Virus record (IMG/VR): IMGVR_UViG_3300046678_000325
Length of the DNA: 64,000 nt
Direction: 5' to 3' (one strand)
Source: an uncultured virus (IMG/VR IMGVR_UViG_3300046678_000325)
Lineage: Duplodnaviria; Heunggongvirae; Uroviricota; Caudoviricetes
Positions 3,315 through 12,452 of this stretch are shown piece after piece (positions within the stretch are counted from its first letter, which is position 1; each line of letters opens with the position of its first letter). The position numbers and the translations under genes were made by a program. The notes under the pieces were generated by a model. The model searched no databases and was not told the origin of the DNA. It worked only from the letters and a program-made list of their open reading frames with translations.

Positions 3315-3619
3315 CAGCCAGTGTCGATCGAGGGGCTGAGAGTCAACGGCTCTTCCACTTCAACGCTCCACCAAGTTGCGCCTTTGAAAATTTCAGTGTA
3401 CGCCTTGCCGCGATAGAGATGGCACACGCCGTCTTTGCCGTGAGGACAAGTCAGGATGATGCAGATGCGATTCGCGTCTGGAATTTCCTTGTACCTCTCG
3501 TTGTTTGCCGGGATCGACCTGTCCGGTGCCCACGATGCAAAGCGGAATGAGAAACCCTCGCCAAGATCGAATGGACTCTTGGAGTCTGGGTACTGAGAGA
3601 ATTCCAAAACATCACCCAT
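3272..3619 (-). CDS. DUF6527-like protein
   Basis: Motif W...PLTLSPSI...CHGYIRQGRW. Confidence 0.65.
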   Translation of the reverse strand: MGDVLEFSQYPDSKSPFDLGEGFSFRFASWAPDRSIPANNERYKEIPDANRICIILTCPHGKDGVCHLYRGKAYTEIFKGATWWSVEVEEPLTLSPSIDTGCCHGYIRQGRWVDA

Positions 3620-4023
3620 CAGATGAGCACCGTCCGCTTGATTGGCTCGCCCTTTTCATCGAGCTGCTGTGTAATCCAACACGTCATCGCATACGTGCGG
3701 TTTTCGCTGGTCGGAGTGTCGTAGGGCATCGCTGCATTCTGAGACGAGTCGTACACGATCGGATCGGCAGCAAAGCGGAATCGGTTGTCGTTCTGAAACG
3801 TCGAGATAATTTCACCGACTGTAGTTACAACCTTCTCGTCGTAGTCCATCACGAACGTTCCATTGTTCACTTCAACTCTGAACATCATCCCTCCTTGTGT
3901 TGAAATTTTGCAGGATCGATCGGCACGAGCAAGTAGTAGCCGAGCAGAAAAATGTCGTTGTCCTTCGTACCTTTGACCGTTCCACCGGGATTGTAAACGC
4001 AGCGATGATTCTTCATCACGCAA
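3619..4023 (-). CDS. hypothetical protein (probable start MMFRVEV, about 3888)
   Basis: ORF with GGAGG RBS before the internal ATG. Confidence 0.5.
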   Translation of the reverse strand: MRDEESSLRLQSRWNGQRYEGQRHFSARLLLARADRSCKISTQGGMMFRVEVNNGTFVMDYDEKVVTTVGEIISTFQNDNRFRFAADPIVYDSSQNAAMPYDTPTSENRTYAMTCWITQQLDEKGEPIKRTVLI

Positions 4024-5052: not shown

Positions 5053-5091
5053 AGCACCGTGAGCGGGAAGCTGTGGCCTTTGGAGATACGA

Positions 5092-5121
5092 AAGGTACTA
5101 GAGAACCCCCCTAGTCGTCAA
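5092..5121 (-). promoter_or_regulatory. sigma70-type promoter TTGACG-18-TACCTT
   Basis: Hexamers upstream of the minus-strand operon. Confidence 0.5.
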
Positions 5122-5240
5122 GTCGGTGAAACGTCTCCTATGGGCTTGCATCCCGACTCCAAAAAATACCCCCAAATGAAATTTGAAAACGCTTGTTTCT
5201 GGCTCGTACATGCCGACGCCTTCTTCATTCAAACTGAAAA

Positions 5241-5280
5241 TACGGTATATCAGTACGCGATCTACGGTGTATCAGTACGC
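5241..5280. repeat. 18-bp tandem direct repeat TACGGT(A/G)TATCAGTACGC x2
   Basis: 5241-5258 and 5263-5280, one mismatch, 22-bp period. Confidence 0.85.
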
Positions 5281-5519
5281 CCCGGCGGAATACCCCTCGG
5301 TAGGTCGTCCGATTCCTGAAATCCGGTGAATTTCACTTTGTGCCCATTTGCAGGGGTTTTAGTGAAATTGATCGAACGCCTGTTTGCCTCGCAAAGCCGC
5401 ATGGTTACGTGGGTCATGGAATTACATTTCAGGGTCTAGCCCGCATTCCGCTGATGCTTAGGCGATGTGCTGATGTGCCCACGGAGATAGGGGTCTGAGC
5501 AGTGATCCCTGAAACGTTC

Positions 5520-6180
5520 TCAGTCCCTCTAGGCCATTGGTATAACCATGCAGGCACTCCCTCCCCGCTCTAGGTCACTAGCCTGTAATTCGCCATAGGT
5601 TCGGCGCGTATCAGCACTAGGGTGCAGTGGCGATCTAGTAGCAATCTTGGAATGGCCTAGGATTACACTCCCGGACTGAAATACAGGCTAGGGCGGAAGG
5701 GTAATTTAGTGCCCCGAAACCGCTTGATTCAGTGAGGCGCTGAGGAGCGTTCTGCCGCACTAGCTGAGCCTTGTTAGGTCTGACTCTCCCTGCCCCGCCG
5801 ATCGGCCGTAGCGAAGCGCTGAGACGCTGCTAGCAGGCAGTCATTCAGGACGATTCCAGCGGGGATAGCTGAGCCTCCCTCGCGGGCGGGGCGAATGGAT
5901 CAATTTCCAATGCGGGAATGATCGTTTGACGGTAGTGAAATTCTCGGCTACCATCCGCGGCGTAGTCGATAGCTTGAACCGTTGGCAGGCAGTCAACGGC
6001 GGCCGATTTTTCACTAGGTCGCCAATCGTGCCCGAGCCGCAGTAACGGGAACGGCGCAAGAGCTAGGAACGATCATCCGGCGGATACTTGTCGCCTGCGA
6101 TTTCAACAATCGGCGGACGGATGGAAACGGCCTAGCTCGCTGAGCTTGAAATGAGGCGGTTTAGTGAAGCTTCGGCGGAA
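5520..6180 (+). ncRNA. long structured non-coding leader of the plus-strand island (candidate structured RNA)
   Basis: No credible ORF; many perfect 7-11 bp helices, both local and with 8936-9251. Confidence 0.45.
6140..6180 (+). repeat. inverted repeat 1, left arm (pairs with 7442-7482)
   Basis: 41 nt: 37 Watson-Crick, 3 G-U, 1 A-G. Confidence 0.95.
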
Positions 6181-6209
6181 TTCCATTCCGACACTGAGGA
6201 GCTTTCACA

Positions 6210-7406
6210 ATGACCAAGCATCATGGCACTGCGACTGATTGGCGGGCAGGCAGTAAGCGGCGGATGATCGCCGAGCTTGCTGAGCTTGGAAGGACAAAGC
6301 GCGAGACTTACGCCGCACTGCGGCCGATGGTCGAAGGACAAAGCGCGCCGATGATCTTTTCAGCGAACGTCAATGGTCGCCGCACTCCTAAGCCGATTTC
6401 GTTGCAGCTTGTTGAGCTGAAAAACGAAATTGGTCGGGTCTTCGCCCTGCTAGGTCGGGCGGAATCCGCCGCGTGGGAATCGGCCGAGACTGAGCCGAAT
6501 GAAATTCCCGACGCTGAGGATGAGACCGAGAACGAGGAGGATGATGAGACCGAGGAAACGAAATCTCCCAAGGCTATCGGGAAGGATCGCGTTAATTCGG
6601 AGCTAGACCACTTCCTCCGTGAGGTACGGCGCATTCGCACACTGTGCGAACGGCGCGCCGAGACCGGAGCCGCGTTGGATTCAATTTCAATGCGGCCTGC
6701 ACAAGCGGCCGGACGTTTGATCCCTGCGGGGATTCCGGCCGCCGCACTATTGCATTCAATGCTCCTGCACTGGTCGCCGGAAATTCGGCGTAGCGATGCA
6801 GGGGTGCCCGATTTCGATTACACGGCGCTATCCGCTGAAATCATGCGGGATCGTGGAATCGATTCGGCCGGACGACATGAGCTTTTCGGCTACGTGCTCA
6901 CTCTCGCTGAGGAGCGACAGCCGGTTATGTTGATCGGCCCTGCGGGAACGGGAAAATCTCGCCTATGTAAACAGGTCTCGGAGTATTTGGAGATTCCCTA
7001 CGGGGAAACGCCGATGACTCCGGGCGCTACACGGGGAGATTTACTCGGTCGGATGACTGCAAACCCGAATGAGCCGTTTATCCTCAGCCAATTCGCCGAA
7101 ATCTATTCCGGCGGAGGGGTTTTCAATTTCGAGGAAATCGACGCGGCCGATCCGGGAATGCTGCTAGTCCTGAACAATGCACTAGCCGGAGATGAGCTTT
7201 TCAATTCGGCGAATGGTCAGCGCTACGGACGAAACGCTGATTTCGTAGCGATGGCGACTGCGAACACGTTCGGAATCGGGGCTAATCGGGAATTCACCGG
7301 CCGCGAAAAGCTTGACGCTGCAACGATCGATCGTTGGCGGATGGGTCGCGTTTTCCTGCCGCTGGACGAAACGATTGAAGAGGGTTTGCTCTACGGAACC
7401 CTGTAG
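6210..7406 (+). CDS. AAA+ ATPase, MoxR/CbbQ/CobS-like
   Basis: Walker A GPAGTGKS, Walker B FNFEEID, sensor ATANTFG, arginine finger LDAATIDRW; GAGGAG RBS. Confidence 0.9.
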   Translation: MTKHHGTATDWRAGSKRRMIAELAELGRTKRETYAALRPMVEGQSAPMIFSANVNGRRTPKPISLQLVELKNEIGRVFALLGRAESAAWESAETEPNEIPDAEDETENEEDDETEETKSPKAIGKDRVNSELDHFLREVRRIRTLCERRAETGAALDSISMRPAQAAGRLIPAGIPAAALLHSMLLHWSPEIRRSDAGVPDFDYTALSAEIMRDRGIDSAGRHELFGYVLTLAEERQPVMLIGPAGTGKSRLCKQVSEYLEIPYGETPMTPGATRGDLLGRMTANPNEPFILSQFAEIYSGGGVFNFEEIDAADPGMLLVLNNALAGDELFNSANGQRYGRNADFVAMATANTFGIGANREFTGREKLDAATIDRWRMGRVFLPLDETIEEGLLYGTL

Positions 7407-7441
7407 GACGCACTGAGGAGCGTTTTACGGCGCTTCTGACC

Positions 7442-7482
7442 TTCCGCCGGAGCTTCACTAAGCCGCCGCGTTTCAAGCTCAG
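7442..7482 (+). repeat. inverted repeat 1, right arm
   Basis: Reverse complement of 6140-6180. Confidence 0.95.
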
Positions 7483-7520
7483 AGAGTGTGACTAGGCAAC
7501 GGGGATGACTTCGCCCGGAT
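7482..7520 (+). repeat. inverted repeat 2, left arm (pairs with 8566-8603)
   Basis: 7482-7504 is a perfect 23-bp complement of 8581-8603; extends inward with G-U pairs, one mismatch and a bulge. Confidence 0.95.
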
Positions 7521-7551
7521 AGCTAAACCTTCCGATAGGAGAATTTCCACA

Positions 7552-8562
7552 ATGCCTAGAGCAATGACTGCTAGATACGCGGGCCGTTGCAGAACGTGCG
7601 GGAAATCGATCAATCCGGGCGATGCAATTATCTACGCCGGGAAACGAAATTCCCGCCATGCGGCTTGCGTCGGAGGATCGAACGCGGGAACGAGTGAAAT
7701 TCCCACTAGCTCGTCCTCCGAAAAAAGCGGCGTCGGACACTTCACGATCGATTGGGCGGATTTGAAAGATTCCGTTGTAGCATCGATTGAAAAGAAGTCT
7801 ACGCCGAAATTCCACGTTTCCAAGAACGGGAAAACGTGGGCGCACGTAACGCAAGAGGAATCAGAGTCATTCCGTGGCTACTCACTGACCCAAGCAAAAG
7901 ATTGGGCAGTGAATGGTTATGAGTCAGACTCATTGGCGGGAATTTCGGATTTCGCCCCGCCAATCCGCGAAAAGCGGCGATTTGTTCACACTGACGACGG
8001 GGACGAAATCGACCTATCCGCAGCTTGGGCAGGAGATGACGATTTCATGACTCAGTGGACAAAGCGGGATGCAATTCCGGGAATAGCGATTGAGTTTTTC
8101 GTCAATCTCTATGCCGGGGTTTCAGCCGCCGTAGTGAACAAATACATTCATTGGATCGCGCAAGCGATTTTCGCTATTGAAGCGGCCGGGATCGATCCGG
8201 AAATTTCAATGGGCATTCACAGTGAATGGAATTGGTCGCGCGCGCATAAAAGCGGATATACGAAAGTCCGCGTAAAGCGTGAGGGCGAAACAGTAGATTC
8301 CACTTATTGGTCAGCGATGGTAAGTCCTGCCGCGTTTCGCACGTTTGGATTCGCTGCAATTATCCTCGCAGCTGATTCGGTCGGATGCCATTCCGATATG
8401 GGAATCGATTCACCGAATCGCACTGATTCTTGGGATGTGAAATTCGATCCCGAGACTCAGACGATCATGGTAATGAGTCCGTGGGATTCTGGGAATTTCC
8501 CTGAAGCGGAGATGACCGAAAAACTACGGGCGGCGATCGAAGTTCTGAAAAAAGGAAACTAA
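7552..8562 (+). CDS. N-terminal Zn-ribbon plus VWA/CobT-like partner of the AAA+ ATPase
   Basis: CRTCGKSI...HAAC; C-terminal alpha/beta region; follows a MoxR-type ATPase; AGGAG RBS. Confidence 0.65.
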   Translation: MPRAMTARYAGRCRTCGKSINPGDAIIYAGKRNSRHAACVGGSNAGTSEIPTSSSSEKSGVGHFTIDWADLKDSVVASIEKKSTPKFHVSKNGKTWAHVTQEESESFRGYSLTQAKDWAVNGYESDSLAGISDFAPPIREKRRFVHTDDGDEIDLSAAWAGDDDFMTQWTKRDAIPGIAIEFFVNLYAGVSAAVVNKYIHWIAQAIFAIEAAGIDPEISMGIHSEWNWSRAHKSGYTKVRVKREGETVDSTYWSAMVSPAAFRTFGFAAIILAADSVGCHSDMGIDSPNRTDSWDVKFDPETQTIMVMSPWDSGNFPEAEMTEKLRAAIEVLKKGN

Positions 8563-8565
8563 CCG

Positions 8566-8603
8566 ATTCGGGGAAGTTAGCCCCGTTGCCTAGTCACACT
8601 CTC
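8566..8603 (+). repeat. inverted repeat 2, right arm
   Basis: Reverse complement of 7482-7520. Confidence 0.95.
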
Positions 8604-8606
8604 CCG

Positions 8607-8632
8607 AATTTGTTTAGGTAAGCTCGCGGCGG
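8607..8632 (+). repeat. inverted repeat 3, left arm (pairs with 8909-8934)
   Basis: 26 nt: 24 Watson-Crick + 2 G-U. Confidence 0.95.
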
Positions 8633-8660
8633 AATTTCCTTCCGAACGAAAGGCATTCCA

Positions 8661-8876
8661 ATGATCCGCGAGCTTGATACCCGCACTGACACTTTCGTAA
8701 CCGTTTCCCTACTTTGGGACGATGAGACGGACGAAACCCTGATCGAACTTTGCAGCGAGGAGAACGAGGAAATTTTTCCCGTTCCGCACGAGGACGCTGC
8801 AAAGGCATTCCATCATCCGTTCGTATACGCGGCGGGAATTTCCGCCCGGCGGGAACGTATCCCGTCGTCCGTGTAA
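8661..8876 (+). CDS. small acidic hypothetical protein
   Basis: GAAAGG RBS; motif VSLLWD...AFHHPFVYA. Confidence 0.75.
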   Translation: MIRELDTRTDTFVTVSLLWDDETDETLIELCSEENEEIFPVPHEDAAKAFHHPFVYAAGISARRERIPSSV

Positions 8877-8908
8877 TTCCGGCGTAGCTAGCAGCTAGTC
8901 CAATCCTG

Positions 8909-8934
8909 CCGCCGCGAGCTTACCTAAGCGAATT
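8909..8934 (+). repeat. inverted repeat 3, right arm
   Basis: Reverse complement of 8607-8632. Confidence 0.95.
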
Positions 8935-8935
8935 T

Positions 8936-9340
8936 CAAGCGAGACGATTACAAGGCAATGGCCGACCCGATTGGCCTAAAACGGGAGGACTACCCCTGCG
9001 CAAAAACAGGTGTAATTCCAAGTGTAATTCGGCCGGGAATTCCTCGCGCGGGCGAAACCGGAATTCTCGAGAATTTCAGACCAACCATTCCCATCCGCAT
9101 TCGCTTTGAAACTTGTAATTCGGCTCTGACACGGCCTTTGCCTAGAAATTTGGGCCGGGATCGGTACACCGCTTTCATTTGGCTGAGAGTCACAGGCCCA
9201 TAACGGGCGAAGGTCAAGTGAGGGGGTACAAACTTGACGCTCTGTAATCCTCTGTACCGATCCCAGCTTGCTCCGGCATGTGCGAGACCGGAGCGGGCCT
9301 CAGTATGCCTCTCATGGCCTTACGGCGTCAAGTTTGAGCT
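8936..9340 (+). ncRNA. structured non-coding trailer of the plus-strand island
   Basis: Pairs with 5659-6140 in nested order; also two crossing perfect 12-bp helices. Confidence 0.45.
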
Positions 9341-9531
9341 GAAGTAACGTCACCACGAAGCCACAGGAGCGCGTTTAAGACCAAGGGAGGGGTGAGCCGG
9401 TATTCCCAGCATCCCCCTTCCTCAGATCGGCTTACACGGCGTCGGCGCGAGATTCGGCGCGGCGCGGAAACCGACCCCCAACGAGTGAGACCCGCCGGAG
9501 CGGGCCTCGGGTAGCGCGGATGAAATTTCAG

Positions 9532-9945
9532 CTAGGGCTGGTCGTTGTCGTGCAAGTCGGAGCGCTGAGCGAGCCACGGCGCGGAGTGAGTCGGGAGAAG
9601 GTCGCGCCTCCACTGCTTGATCCGATCGTGCTCCTTGGTCGTCTGCTCGATGAAATCTTTGAGGCTCTTGTAGTGACCACAGATCGCCTTGGGATCGTGA
9701 GCGAAGATCGCCGCGATGAAAATTCCCCACTCGTCCCAAGTCGCGGCCTTCTCGGGGAGTCGCTGCATCATGTAGCTGCTCGACCCGGAGATACGCACCA
9801 CGTAGCCCCGCTCCCGCTTGCGTGATCCCTCGATGCCGACATTCGTGTAACCCTGAAACTTCTCGCCCGGATCGGCCAGGTAGCAGCCGCTCGGCACTGC
9901 GGAAAGAACGTCCTGAAGCGTCAGCGTGTCGGAATGAATCTTCAT
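9532..9945 (-). CDS. hypothetical early protein
   Basis: Own promoter, conserved leader motif and RBS. Confidence 0.75.
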   Translation of the reverse strand: MKIHSDTLTLQDVLSAVPSGCYLADPGEKFQGYTNVGIEGSRKRERGYVVRISGSSSYMMQRLPEKAATWDEWGIFIAAIFAHDPKAICGHYKSLKDFIEQTTKEHDRIKQWRRDLLPTHSAPWLAQRSDLHDNDQP

Positions 9946-9947
9946 GC

Positions 9948-9968
9948 GAATTTCCTTTCGTCGGAAGG
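9948..9968 (-). promoter_or_regulatory. start-associated repeat CCTTCCGACGAAAGGAAATTC
   Basis: Identical 21-mers at 9948-9968, 11456-11476 and 12420-12440, each 2 nt before an ATG. Confidence 0.85.
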
Positions 9969-11013: not shown

Positions 11014-11453
11014 GCCTTGATCCCGTCACGAATTTCAGCGTGGCTATAGCTGAGCTTGTGCAAGCGCTCACGGTCGGCGCTCGTAAGCTTCGGCGTCGGC
11101 TTCTTGATCGCCTTGCGCGCCTTGTGCAAGCGATCCCAGCATGCGCGAGCTTCGGCACGAACAGCGTTTCGGAGCGCGACGTTCGGCTTCTTCGGCGTCT
11201 GCTTTTTCACCACTGTGGAATCGACGTGATGAAATTGCTTCCGCGTCGGCTCGTGCTCGTGGCCGTCCGGCGAAGTCCAGTCGCACCCTGTGCAAATGAA
11301 AAGCAGCACACCGTCGTCTCCTGCCTCAACAATGTGACCTTCGCAGTCGGGATCGAGACAAGCCAGCGCGCCGTGAGGCTTGCGCGGCTCGTACATGAAA
11401 CTGATTCCGCTCGGAGCCTTGGTGATCTTCGCGTTCTTTTTCTTTGCTGCCAT
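11010..11453 (-). CDS. Zn-ribbon basic protein
   Basis: CLDPDC...CTGC; leader motif and RBS. Confidence 0.7.
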   Translation of the reverse strand: MAAKKKNAKITKAPSGISFMYEPRKPHGALACLDPDCEGHIVEAGDDGVLLFICTGCDWTSPDGHEHEPTRKQFHHVDSTVVKKQTPKKPNVALRNAVRAEARACWDRLHKARKAIKKPTPKLTSADRERLHKLSYSHAEIRDGIKA

Positions 11454-11602
11454 TGGAATTTCCTTTCGTCGGAAGGGATTTGCGAGTGACGCCTTGCCGC
11501 CCTGACACTACTTTGCCGTCATGCCCAAACGGTAGCTACGTCACTCGCGCGGACGATCGGTGCAATCGGTGTTTCACGTTGAAACCGATTCCCGCTGAGA
11601 CC

Positions 11603-12216: not shown

Positions 12217-12417
12217 TCAGTTGAGGCAAATGTCGATGAAAATGTCCTGCTCGGGCACAAGCGGCTGGACGTAGGCGATGCAGTTGGGAGCGAGCCGCAC
12301 ATAGCAGGCGATCGGAATTCCGTCCACCGTTCGCTCTCCAACGATCCCGCGCTCACACTCTGCGCTGAGCTGCGTGATTGCCTCTGCGATCTTTCTTTCG
12401 ACCTGTGCTGCCTTCAT
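12217..12417 (-). CDS. hypothetical early protein
   Basis: Leader motif and RBS. Confidence 0.65.
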   Translation of the reverse strand: MKAAQVERKIAEAITQLSAECERGIVGERTVDGIPIACYVRLAPNCIAYVQPLVPEQDIFIDICLN

Positions 12418-12452
12418 GAGAATTTCCTTTCGTCGGAAGGTACTGTGCGACC

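What the first reader, a model, noticed from the sequence alone, without database searches (positions are those of the whole stretch)
6136..8943. Three consecutive genes each looped out by its own long inverted repeat, forming a four-way RNA junction
Seen: 6140-6180 pairs with 7442-7482 (37 WC + 3 G-U of 41) around the AAA+ gene. 7482-7520 pairs with 8566-8603 (23 bp perfect plus extension) around the VWA-like gene. 8607-8632 pairs with 8909-8934 (24 WC + 2 G-U) around the 71-aa gene. The three stems are unrelated in sequence and abut within 0-3 nt. CTCGC 6136-6140 / GCGAG 8939-8943 closes the junction. Most non-WC positions are G-U on the plus (sense) strand and would be A-C on the other, which argues for single-stranded pairing and against dsDNA recombination sites. 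Each RBS lies just inside its loop. Known: pre-rRNA encloses 16S and 23S in such stems for RNase III cleavage, while T7 early mRNA uses local hairpins. Inference: an rRNA-operon-like mRNA maturation system that releases end-paired (stabilised, possibly circularised) single-gene mRNAs, or an ssDNA cassette structure. I know of no described case for phage protein-coding genes.
Basis: partly seen in the sequence, partly recalled or inferred. Interest (0 to 1): 0.93.

Follow-up and report, generated by a model that had tools for sequence, protein, structure and literature searches.

The report
Phage genes each enclosed by RNA stems
In an uncultured soil phage and about twenty relatives, three neighbouring genes each sit between two complementary sequences that have co-evolved to stay paired, most likely folding the shared message into one loop per gene, as ribosomal RNA precursors are folded before cutting.

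Summary
The three inverted repeats are real. They score 58, 49 and 39 bits against a background of 27.6 or less in the 64-kb window. Each brackets one + strand gene plus its ribosome-binding site: a CobS-like AAA+ ATPase, a DUF7192 protein and a 71-aa protein.

The layout is conserved. 21 of 24 distinct related loci carry such stems, 49 stems in all with the window's. Arm sequences differ between loci but stay complementary: 96% paired with their own partner against 52-62% with swapped partners. In four relatives, 10 of 37 pairs changed on both sides.

Transition mismatches favour G-U on the sense strand, 52 to 26. No loop is inverted, and contigs from four runs show no rearrangement.

The proposed closing helix, and so a closed four-way junction, is not conserved. 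No RNA data exist, so cleavage is only inferred.

Best reading: long-range helices in a polycistronic mRNA, probably RNase III substrates, that make each gene a self-contained, end-paired unit. Whole stem-plus-gene units are gained and moved between relatives. Four literature searches found no description. Earlier notes from this scan report the same layout in unrelated phages.

The parts
6136..6180 (+). 5' arm of stem A, which encloses the ATPase gene
   Evidence: Pairs with 7442-7486: 40 WC + 3 G-U of 45; 38 pairs in the fold.
6186..6209 (+). Conserved leader and ribosome-binding motif (TTCCGAC...GAGG...) just inside loop A
   Evidence: The same motif sits inside the loops of relatives.
6210..7406 (+). 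Gene 1: 398-aa AAA+ ATPase, CobS/MoxR-like
   Evidence: Pfam AAA_5 E 7.8e-13. PHROG 249 E 4.6e-31. PDB CobS E 5.4e-07.
7442..7486 (+). 3' arm of stem A; 7482-7486 is contested with stem B
7482..7520 (+). 5' arm of stem B, which encloses the DUF7192 gene
   Evidence: 34 nt, 91%. (37 pairs, 7482-7520 with 8566-8603).
7529..7551 (+). Leader and ribosome-binding motif of gene 2 (CTTCCGATAGGAG...)
7552..8562 (+). Gene 2: 336-aa DUF7192 protein with an N-terminal Cys-rich stretch; possibly VWA-like
   Evidence: Pfam DUF7192 E 7e-10. Weak fold match to the NorD VWA domain. No PDB sequence match.
8566..8603 (+). 3' arm of stem B
8607..8632 (+). 5' arm of stem C, which encloses the 71-aa gene
   Evidence: (24 WC + 2 G-U of 26).
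8640..8660 (+). Leader and ribosome-binding motif of gene 3 (TTCCGAACGAAAGG...)
8661..8876 (+). Gene 3: 71-aa protein in no known family, conserved in relatives
   Evidence: Homologues inside the last loop of L001, L003, L005, L016 and L022. No Pfam, PHROG or NCBIfam hit.
8909..8934 (+). 3' arm of stem C
8938..8943 (+). 3' half of the proposed closing helix (with 6136-6141); probably chance
   Evidence: Present in the fold, but outer flanks do not pair preferentially in 6 complete arrays.

Best explanation
The three genes are transcribed together on the + strand, and the message folds into three adjacent long-range RNA helices of 26-45 bp. Each helix forms between the sequence just before a gene's ribosome-binding site and the sequence just after its stop codon. 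Every cistron thus becomes its own closed domain, with its ribosome-binding site left single-stranded inside the loop.

The helices are near-perfect duplexes longer than two helical turns, so the host's double-strand-specific RNase III most likely cuts them. This would work as it does for the leader-trailer helices around 16S and 23S rRNA. It would release single-gene mRNAs whose 5' and 3' ends stay base-paired and are shielded from end-dependent nucleases.

Each unit (stem, leader, ORF) behaves as a portable, context-independent expression cassette.

Shown: the pairing, its conservation, its co-variation, its sense-strand bias and its modular gain and relocation. Inferred: co-transcription, helix formation in vivo, RNase III cleavage and stabilisation.
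For: (1) The three repeats are the only strong long-range repeats in 64 kb and they form in the + strand fold.

(2) Conservation. 21 of 24 distinct related loci (45-67% ATPase identity) carry gene-bracketing stems, 49 stems in all counting the window's. Stem A is present in 14 of 16 loci that have both flanks, with own-flank helix scores of 20-31 against a cross-locus mean of 8.35, sd 2.2. Stem B is present in 13 of 13 loci where gene 2 is complete.

(3) Co-variation. Own arms are 96% paired against 52-62% with deranged partners, and 0 of 500 derangements reach the observed value for any stem. In L011-L014, 10 of 37 pairs changed on both sides, against a shuffle mean of 3.6 (0 of 500 reach it) and at most 2 when the partner is slid by 1-3 columns.

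(4) Strand. Transition mismatches are G-U on the + strand 52 times and A-C 26 times (binomial p = 0.004). The + strand duplex is the more stable in 22 stems, the - strand in 11, and 7 are equal.

(5) Geometry fits an mRNA element. Arms never enter ORFs. The start codon lies 17-42 nt after the 5' arm in 31 of 40 stems. The 3' arm starts 35 nt or less after the stop in 31 of 40. Consecutive stems are 4 nt or less apart at 20 of 20 junctions, and 4 of 5.

(6) All 40 catalogued loops hold a + strand ORF of gene size (longest frame on + in 36 of 40).

(7) Modularity. L003 has an extra 89-aa gene with its own stem between units 2 and 3. Units encoding a small protein that looks similar by eye sit upstream of the ATPase in L016 and L020.

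(8) Precedent. RNase III cuts long-range (over 100 nt) intramolecular duplexes in B. subtilis mRNAs (PMC11780869, abstract and passages read).
Against: There is no RNA evidence at all. No listed run is RNA, so transcription as one unit, helix formation and cleavage are untested.

The strand bias is only 2:1. 26 A-C and more than 20 transversion mismatches are tolerated. A strand-asymmetric mutation bias could mimic the effect and was not polarised against an outgroup.

Co-variation alone cannot separate RNA selection from concerted evolution of DNA repeats.

Other genes of the same phages carry the same leader motif without stems, so stems are not needed for expression in general.

Cultured phages with a distantly related ATPase (Tunturi_4, Aegeus, Bestia) lack the stems.

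Three loci that extend beyond stem B (L018, L019, L024) show no third stem. L004 has a degraded stem A.

No promoter was convincingly identified. The scan found one sigma-70-like site at 5926-5954, no more than chance gives.
Confidence: 0.55

Rival explanations
1. The helices form in the mRNA but are not processing sites. They would act as uncut structural clamps or insulators. They would close each cistron into its own folding domain and keep neighbouring sequence from occluding the ribosome-binding site. They might also bring the stop codon close to the start for ribosome recycling, or block exonucleases.
For: The same structural evidence applies. Ribosome-binding sites are always left free inside the loop. 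Units work in different positions and neighbourhoods. 5'-3' UTR pairing that controls translation is known for icaR (PMC3868564, listing and abstract only).
Against: Near-perfect duplexes of 23-52 bp are generic RNase III substrates, by established knowledge of the enzyme. Escaping cleavage would need antideterminants or a host without the enzyme. Neither could be tested, because the host is unknown.
Confidence: 0.2
2. The repeats act in DNA. Each gene would be a cassette whose flanking inverted repeats fold in single-stranded DNA or serve as recombination sites for gain, loss or shuffling of cassettes. The arms would stay alike through gene conversion.
For: Whole units are gained or relocated between relatives. 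Co-variation is also expected from concerted evolution. L004 looks like a recombinant whose homology to L003 starts inside the 5' arm. The phage encodes RecA.
Against: Every unit has different arms, so no single recombinase site is shared. With arms 0-4 nt apart there is no room for target-site duplications. No integrase or transposase family was hit among the 63 ORFs scanned. None of the 40 catalogued loops is inverted, and no joints appear in contigs of 4 runs. The 52:26 G-U bias on the sense strand is not expected for dsDNA sites. The arms respect ribosome-binding-site and stop-codon spacing.
Confidence: 0.12
3. The segments are invertible switches (invertons) flanked by inverted repeats.
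For: Inverted repeats flanking a segment are the hallmark of invertons.
Against: All 40 catalogued loops hold a gene-sized open frame in the ATPase orientation. No inverted joint is present in contigs of 4 runs. Three different repeat pairs would need three specificities, and no invertase was found.
Confidence: 0.02
4. The repeats are chance matches or assembly artefacts.
For: None.
Against: The three score 39-58 bits against a background of 27.6 or less. The same junctions appear in contigs of two runs that are not flagged as the likely source (X3, X4). The layout recurs in 21 independent relatives.
Confidence: 0.01

Closest known systems
Leader-trailer processing helices around 16S and 23S rRNA in bacterial rrn operons (RNase III substrates; from established knowledge)
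   Same: A long-range helix forms between the sequences immediately flanking a 0.3-1.4 kb RNA and loops it out of a multi-gene transcript. Several such helices occur in one transcript. The helices are long enough for RNase III.
   Different: Here the enclosed RNAs are protein-coding cistrons with free ribosome-binding sites. The helices abut within 0-4 nt rather than being separated by spacers and tRNAs. The units are modular and move between genomes. Cleavage is untested.
Intercistronic RNase III sites of phage T7 early mRNA (from established knowledge)
   Same: A phage polycistronic message would be cut between genes by host RNase III into stable single-gene mRNAs.
   Different: T7 sites are local hairpins with internal loops. 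They are cut once and leave a 3' hairpin. Here each intergenic spacer is made of halves of two different long-range helices, so both ends of each mRNA would end up paired to each other.
Long-range intramolecular RNase III targets in Bacillus subtilis mRNAs (PMC11780869, abstract and passages read)
   Same: mRNA duplexes form between segments more than 100 nt apart and are cut by RNase III.
   Different: Those are scattered host cases (73 sites on 45 mRNAs) and are not described there as one-per-cistron tandem arrays. They are not from phages.
5'-3' UTR pairing in Staphylococcus aureus icaR mRNA (PMC3868564, listing and abstract only)
   Same: The two ends of one mRNA pair with each other.
   Different: In icaR the pairing involves the Shine-Dalgarno region and represses translation. 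Here the ribosome-binding site is left outside the helix.
Integron gene cassettes with attC sites (from established knowledge)
   Same: Arrays of single-gene units are bounded by imperfect inverted repeats that act as single strands. Units are gained and shuffled.
   Different: An attC is a local repeat at one end of a cassette, has conserved core sites and needs an integrase. Here the two arms lie on opposite sides of the gene, share no core between units, and no integrase was found.

Membership tests
rRNA-operon-type RNase III processing helices | A long-range helix formed by the sequences flanking the enclosed RNA | tested here: met
   conserved.
rRNA-operon-type RNase III processing helices | Duplex of about two helical turns or more, suitable for RNase III | tested here: met
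   49 stems of 23-52 nt, median 30. The lower bound is partly set by the detection threshold.
rRNA-operon-type RNase III processing helices | Staggered cleavage by RNase III within the helix | not testable with these tools
   No RNA run holds the sequence.
rRNA-operon-type RNase III processing helices | The enclosed RNA is a ribosomal RNA | tested here: not met
   The loops hold protein-coding genes. No Rfam family or tRNA is present in the window.
T7-type intercistronic RNase III hairpins | A local stem-loop in the intergenic spacer | tested here: not met
   The spacers consist of halves of two different long-range stems. Only the L011-L014 arms contain an internal palindrome.
Integron cassette array (attC) | A local imperfect repeat with shared core sites at one end of each cassette | tested here: not met
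   The arms flank the gene and share no core between units.
Integron cassette array (attC) | An adjacent integron integrase | tested here: not met
   No integrase family was hit among 63 window ORFs scanned against Pfam. The rest of the phage genome was not available.
IS/MITE-type elements with terminal inverted repeats | The same terminal repeats in all copies, plus target-site duplications | tested here: not met
   Each unit has unique arms. Arms abut within 0-4 nt, which leaves no room for duplications.
Invertons (invertible DNA segments) | Both orientations are found in populations or relatives | tested here: not met
   All 40 catalogued loops hold a gene-sized frame in the ATPase orientation. 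No joints appear in contigs of 4 runs. Contigs drop rare variants, so rare inversion is not excluded.
MoxR/CobS AAA+ with VWA partner (gene content of the module) | An AAA_5 ATPase followed by a VWA-domain protein | tested here: inconclusive
   The AAA_5 match is clear. The partner is DUF7192, with only a weak fold match to the NorD VWA domain (E 0.023, TM about 0.2).

The most novel reading that the evidence does not exclude
Each stem, leader and ORF unit is a self-contained, portable expression cassette. A double-strand RNA nuclease excises every cistron from the operon transcript as an end-paired 'panhandle' mRNA, which might even be ligated into a circle. This would give each gene a stability and translation rate that do not depend on its neighbours. 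That in turn would let phages swap single genes in and out of operons without breaking their expression. It would be a natural counterpart of the RNA-processing insulators built in synthetic biology, and a general but undescribed principle of phage operon organisation.
Probability: 0.25. Interest if true: 0.9.

Novelty: new variant of a known kind. Interest (0 to 1): 0.8.

Why it matters
If the helices work as inferred, phages use the logic of rRNA maturation on ordinary protein-coding messages. One long-range helix per gene would turn an operon transcript into separately stabilised or insulated mRNAs.

That would add a new layer to phage gene-expression control. It would suggest how single genes can move between phage operons and still be expressed. 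It would also offer natural parts for insulating genes in engineered operons.

The case is directly testable. The stems are long and sharply defined, and dozens of natural compensatory variants are available.

Tried and rejected
- **RNA evidence.** The search for sequencing runs listed no RNA holder, so expression and processing could not be examined.
- **Own genome.** No whole genome is held for this window. I could not look for a phage RNase III, RNA ligase or RNA polymerase beyond the 63 window ORFs scanned against Pfam (none found).
- **Host and prophage search.** The scan of genome contigs found no relative, so the host remains unknown.
- **Cultured phages.** There was no nucleotide match in the phage collection. 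Three cultured phages with a 34-37% identical ATPase domain have no gene-bracketing repeats. No published transcriptome can therefore be borrowed.
- **Closing helix.** This was tested and rejected as a conserved feature.
- **Flanking regions.** The ORF-poor flanks are not unusually structured as RNA: z -0.14 for 5400-6135 and z -1.44 for 8935-9420.
- **Promoter scan.** It gave no more sites than chance: 2 found against 3.1 expected.
- **Other genes of the window.** None shows a weaker bracketing stem above background.
- **Literature.** Four full-text searches returned no paper describing gene-bracketing stems in phage mRNAs.
- **Earlier notes of this scan.** Look-ups by place and by sequence gave nothing for this genome or family.
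- **K-mer test.** A maximal-order Markov test did not single out the AATT-core octamers, because their sub-words are enriched too.
Full report
**Observation**

The window is part of a tailed phage. It encodes a DnaE-like polymerase, helicases, RecA, baseplate and capsid proteins, almost all on the - strand.

Between 6136 and 8934 lie three + strand genes:
- a 398-aa AAA+ ATPase of the CobS/MoxR type (Pfam AAA_5 E 7.8e-13, PHROG 249 E 4.6e-31, PDB CobS E 5.4e-07);
- a 336-aa DUF7192 protein;
- a 71-aa protein in no known family.

Each gene is bracketed by its own inverted repeat:
- 6136-6180 with 7442-7486 (45 nt, 89%);
- 7482-7515 with 8570-8603 (34 nt, 91%);
- 8607-8632 with 8909-8934 (26 nt, 92%).

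In a self-versus-reverse-complement BLAST of the whole 64 kb these score 58.4, 48.8 and 39.1 bits. Every other long-range pair scores 27.6 or less.

The minimum-free-energy fold of 6100-8980 as + strand RNA contains all three helices, with 38, 37 and 25 pairs.

No Rfam family and no tRNA is present.

**Not an artefact, not an inversion switch**

Contigs of four public runs were laid on 5400-9400. One contig spans 5400-8698. Contigs from two runs not flagged as the possible source (X3, X4) carry the arm junctions unchanged. No joint of any kind (inversion, excision) was reported. Contigs can miss rare forms, so rare rearrangement is not excluded.

**Conservation**

The ATPase retrieved 28 related loci from IMG/VR and soil metagenomes, at 40-69% identity in the best segment. 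Four are near-duplicates of others: L005 of L001, L002 of L003, L018 of L017, and L021 of L006. Their arms are flagged as duplicates. That leaves 24 distinct loci.

- 21 of the 24 carry gene-bracketing inverted repeats at BLAST E of 0.01 or less.
- The other three are L004, whose stem A is degraded, and L007 and L025, where the contig lacks one flank.
- Counting the window, 49 stems were catalogued, of 23-52 nt with median 30. The lower bound is partly imposed by the detection threshold.
- Stem A is present in 14 of 16 loci that have both flanks. Three near-duplicates were dropped before this count. Own-flank helix scores are 20-31 against a cross-locus mean of 8.35, sd 2.2.
- The two exceptions are L004 and L023. 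In L023, as in L031, a larger stem encloses a small looped gene plus the ATPase.
- Stem B is present in all 13 distinct loci where gene 2 is complete.
- A third stem is present in 7 of 10 distinct loci that extend far enough. L018, L019 and L024 show none.

**Co-variation**

Arm sequences differ widely between loci but remain partly alignable. I aligned the 5' arms together with the reverse complements of the 3' arms.
- Own partners are 95.9%, 95.8% and 96.3% paired for stems A, B and C.
- Deranged partners give 61.5%, 52.1% and 59.1%, and none of 500 derangements reaches the observed value.

For the four relatives L011-L014, RNAalifold recovers stem A as the outermost helix. On that helix the counts are as follows:
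- 93.9% of cells are paired;
- 10 of 37 pairs changed on both sides, against a shuffle mean of 3.6 (0 of 500 reach it);
- at most 2 such pairs appear when the partner is slid by 1-3 columns.

The pairing is therefore under selection, or is homogenised in some other way.

**Which strand, and RNA or DNA**

Transition mismatches are G-U on the + strand 52 times and A-C 26 times (37:19:7; binomial p = 0.004). In the window the count is 6 to 0.

The + strand duplex is the more stable in 22 stems, the - strand in 11, and 7 are equal (Wilcoxon p = 0.015).

This favours pairing in the sense transcript but is not decisive. A strand-asymmetric mutation bias could contribute, and I could not polarise the substitutions.

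The geometry also fits an mRNA element:
- the arms lie wholly outside ORFs;
- the start codon follows the 5' arm by 17-42 nt in 31 of 40 stems;
- the 3' arm begins 35 nt or less after the stop codon in 31 of 40;
- the longest open frame in the loop is on the + strand in 36 of 40, and the four exceptions are small loops;
- consecutive stems are 4 nt or less apart at all 20 junctions, and at 4 of 5.

Several points argue against DNA elements:
- every unit has different arms;
- there is no room for target-site duplications;
- no integrase, transposase or invertase family was hit among 63 window ORFs;
- all 40 catalogued loops hold a gene-sized frame in the ATPase orientation.

**Modularity**

L003 carries an extra 89-aa gene with its own stem (3501-3528 with 3838-3865) between the DUF7192 unit and the small-protein unit. 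L016 and L020 carry related small-protein units upstream of the ATPase. These two cluster with each other. Their likeness to the L003 gene is from my reading of the sequences, not from the clustering. L008, L023 and L031 have other extra looped genes. Stem and gene are thus gained, lost and repositioned together.

**What is not supported**

The closing helix 6136-6141 with 8938-8943 is in the fold. However, the outer flanks of six complete arrays pair no better with their own partner than with foreign ones. The structure is best described as adjacent helices radiating from an open junction, not a closed four-way junction.

'VWA-like' for gene 2 rests on a weak fold match to NorD.

The stems are not a property of the ATPase family as such. 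Three cultured phages with a distant homologue lack them.

Stems are also not needed for every gene that has the shared leader motif. That motif occurs at unlooped - strand genes too.

**Mechanism**

The best reading is long-range helices in a polycistronic sense mRNA that close each cistron into its own domain.

Near-perfect duplexes of 23-52 bp are generic RNase III substrates. This rests on established knowledge of the enzyme. Long-range mRNA duplexes cut by RNase III have also been mapped in B. subtilis (PMC11780869, passages read). I therefore think host RNase III most likely cuts the helices and leaves single-gene mRNAs with paired ends, as in rRNA maturation.

An uncut insulator or clamp role is the main rival. 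A DNA-level cassette role is less likely. No step after the pairing itself is shown, because no RNA data exist for this phage.

**Novelty**

Four full-text searches found no description of gene-bracketing stems in phage messages.

Earlier notes of this scan report the same layout in unrelated uncultured phages. I did not test those notes. If they hold, this is one instance of a wider, apparently undescribed pattern.

I class it as a new variant of a known kind, namely long-range processing or closing helices.

Noticed in passing
window 6186-6209, 7529-7551, 8640-8660 (+); 9943-9966, 11451-11474, 12415-12438 (-): A conserved leader, TTCCGAC(A)GAAAGG(A/T)AATTC-N2-ATG, precedes the looped genes. 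It also precedes several unlooped - strand genes, and in 13 of 31 loci it occurs on both strands. The upstream TTCC can pair with the GGAA of the Shine-Dalgarno region (predicted, columns 76-79 with 94-97; these columns are invariant, so there is no covariation). It may be a class-specific translational operator or a promoter-proximal signal.
   Followed up: partly
whole window: AATT-core octamers are strongly over-represented genome-wide, inside genes as well. TGTAATTC occurs 34 times against 1.05 expected (24 on +, 10 on -). GGAATTTC occurs 41 times against 3.1 expected. The cause is unknown. Candidates are a binding site, a modification motif or a packaging or recombination signal.
   Followed up: partly
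L009 161-172, L012 156-167, L013 1993-2004 and 2263-2274, L014 10-21 and 277-288, L020 3039-3050, L001 4801-4812: The motif GACTTTGAAAAY occurs only on the + strand, in 8 of 25 loci. It usually ends 3-6 nt before the first 5' arm of the array. In L013 and L014 it occurs twice, about 270 nt apart. It could mark the transcript start or a processing site. The window has only a degenerate version inside the 5' arm of stem A.
   Followed up: partly
window 5053-6135 and 8935-9420: ORF-poor regions flank the module. An 88-nt block (about 5985-6069) and a 62-nt block (about 8957-9018) are 78-82% identical to L003 754-840 and 4328-4388. As RNA the regions are not unusually stable. Tunturiibacter phage Tunturi_4 also has a 2.4-kb unannotated gap upstream of its ATPase, and that gap contains CA/GT-rich repeats.
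   Followed up: partly
L004 1-385 compared with L003 909-946: L004 is 95% identical to L003 from inside the 5' arm of stem A onward and is unrelated upstream. Its two arms pair poorly (helix score 8 against 26). It is either a natural recombinant with a degraded stem or a chimeric assembly.
   Followed up: partly
window 7438-7486: A co-occurring variant strain in runs X2 and X4 carries nine substitutions and a 1-nt insertion between 7438 and 7486. Eight of these ten changes lie in the 3' arm of stem A, and two of them would give G-U pairs. The matching 5' arm of that strain was not covered, so compensation could not be checked.
   Followed up: no
window 7552-8562: The DUF7192 protein begins with a Cys-rich, zinc-ribbon-like stretch that matches PHROG 1581. 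Its best, though weak, structural neighbours are the NorD VWA chains of NorQ-NorD complexes. This would make the gene pair a MoxR-AAA+/VWA-type module.
   Followed up: partly
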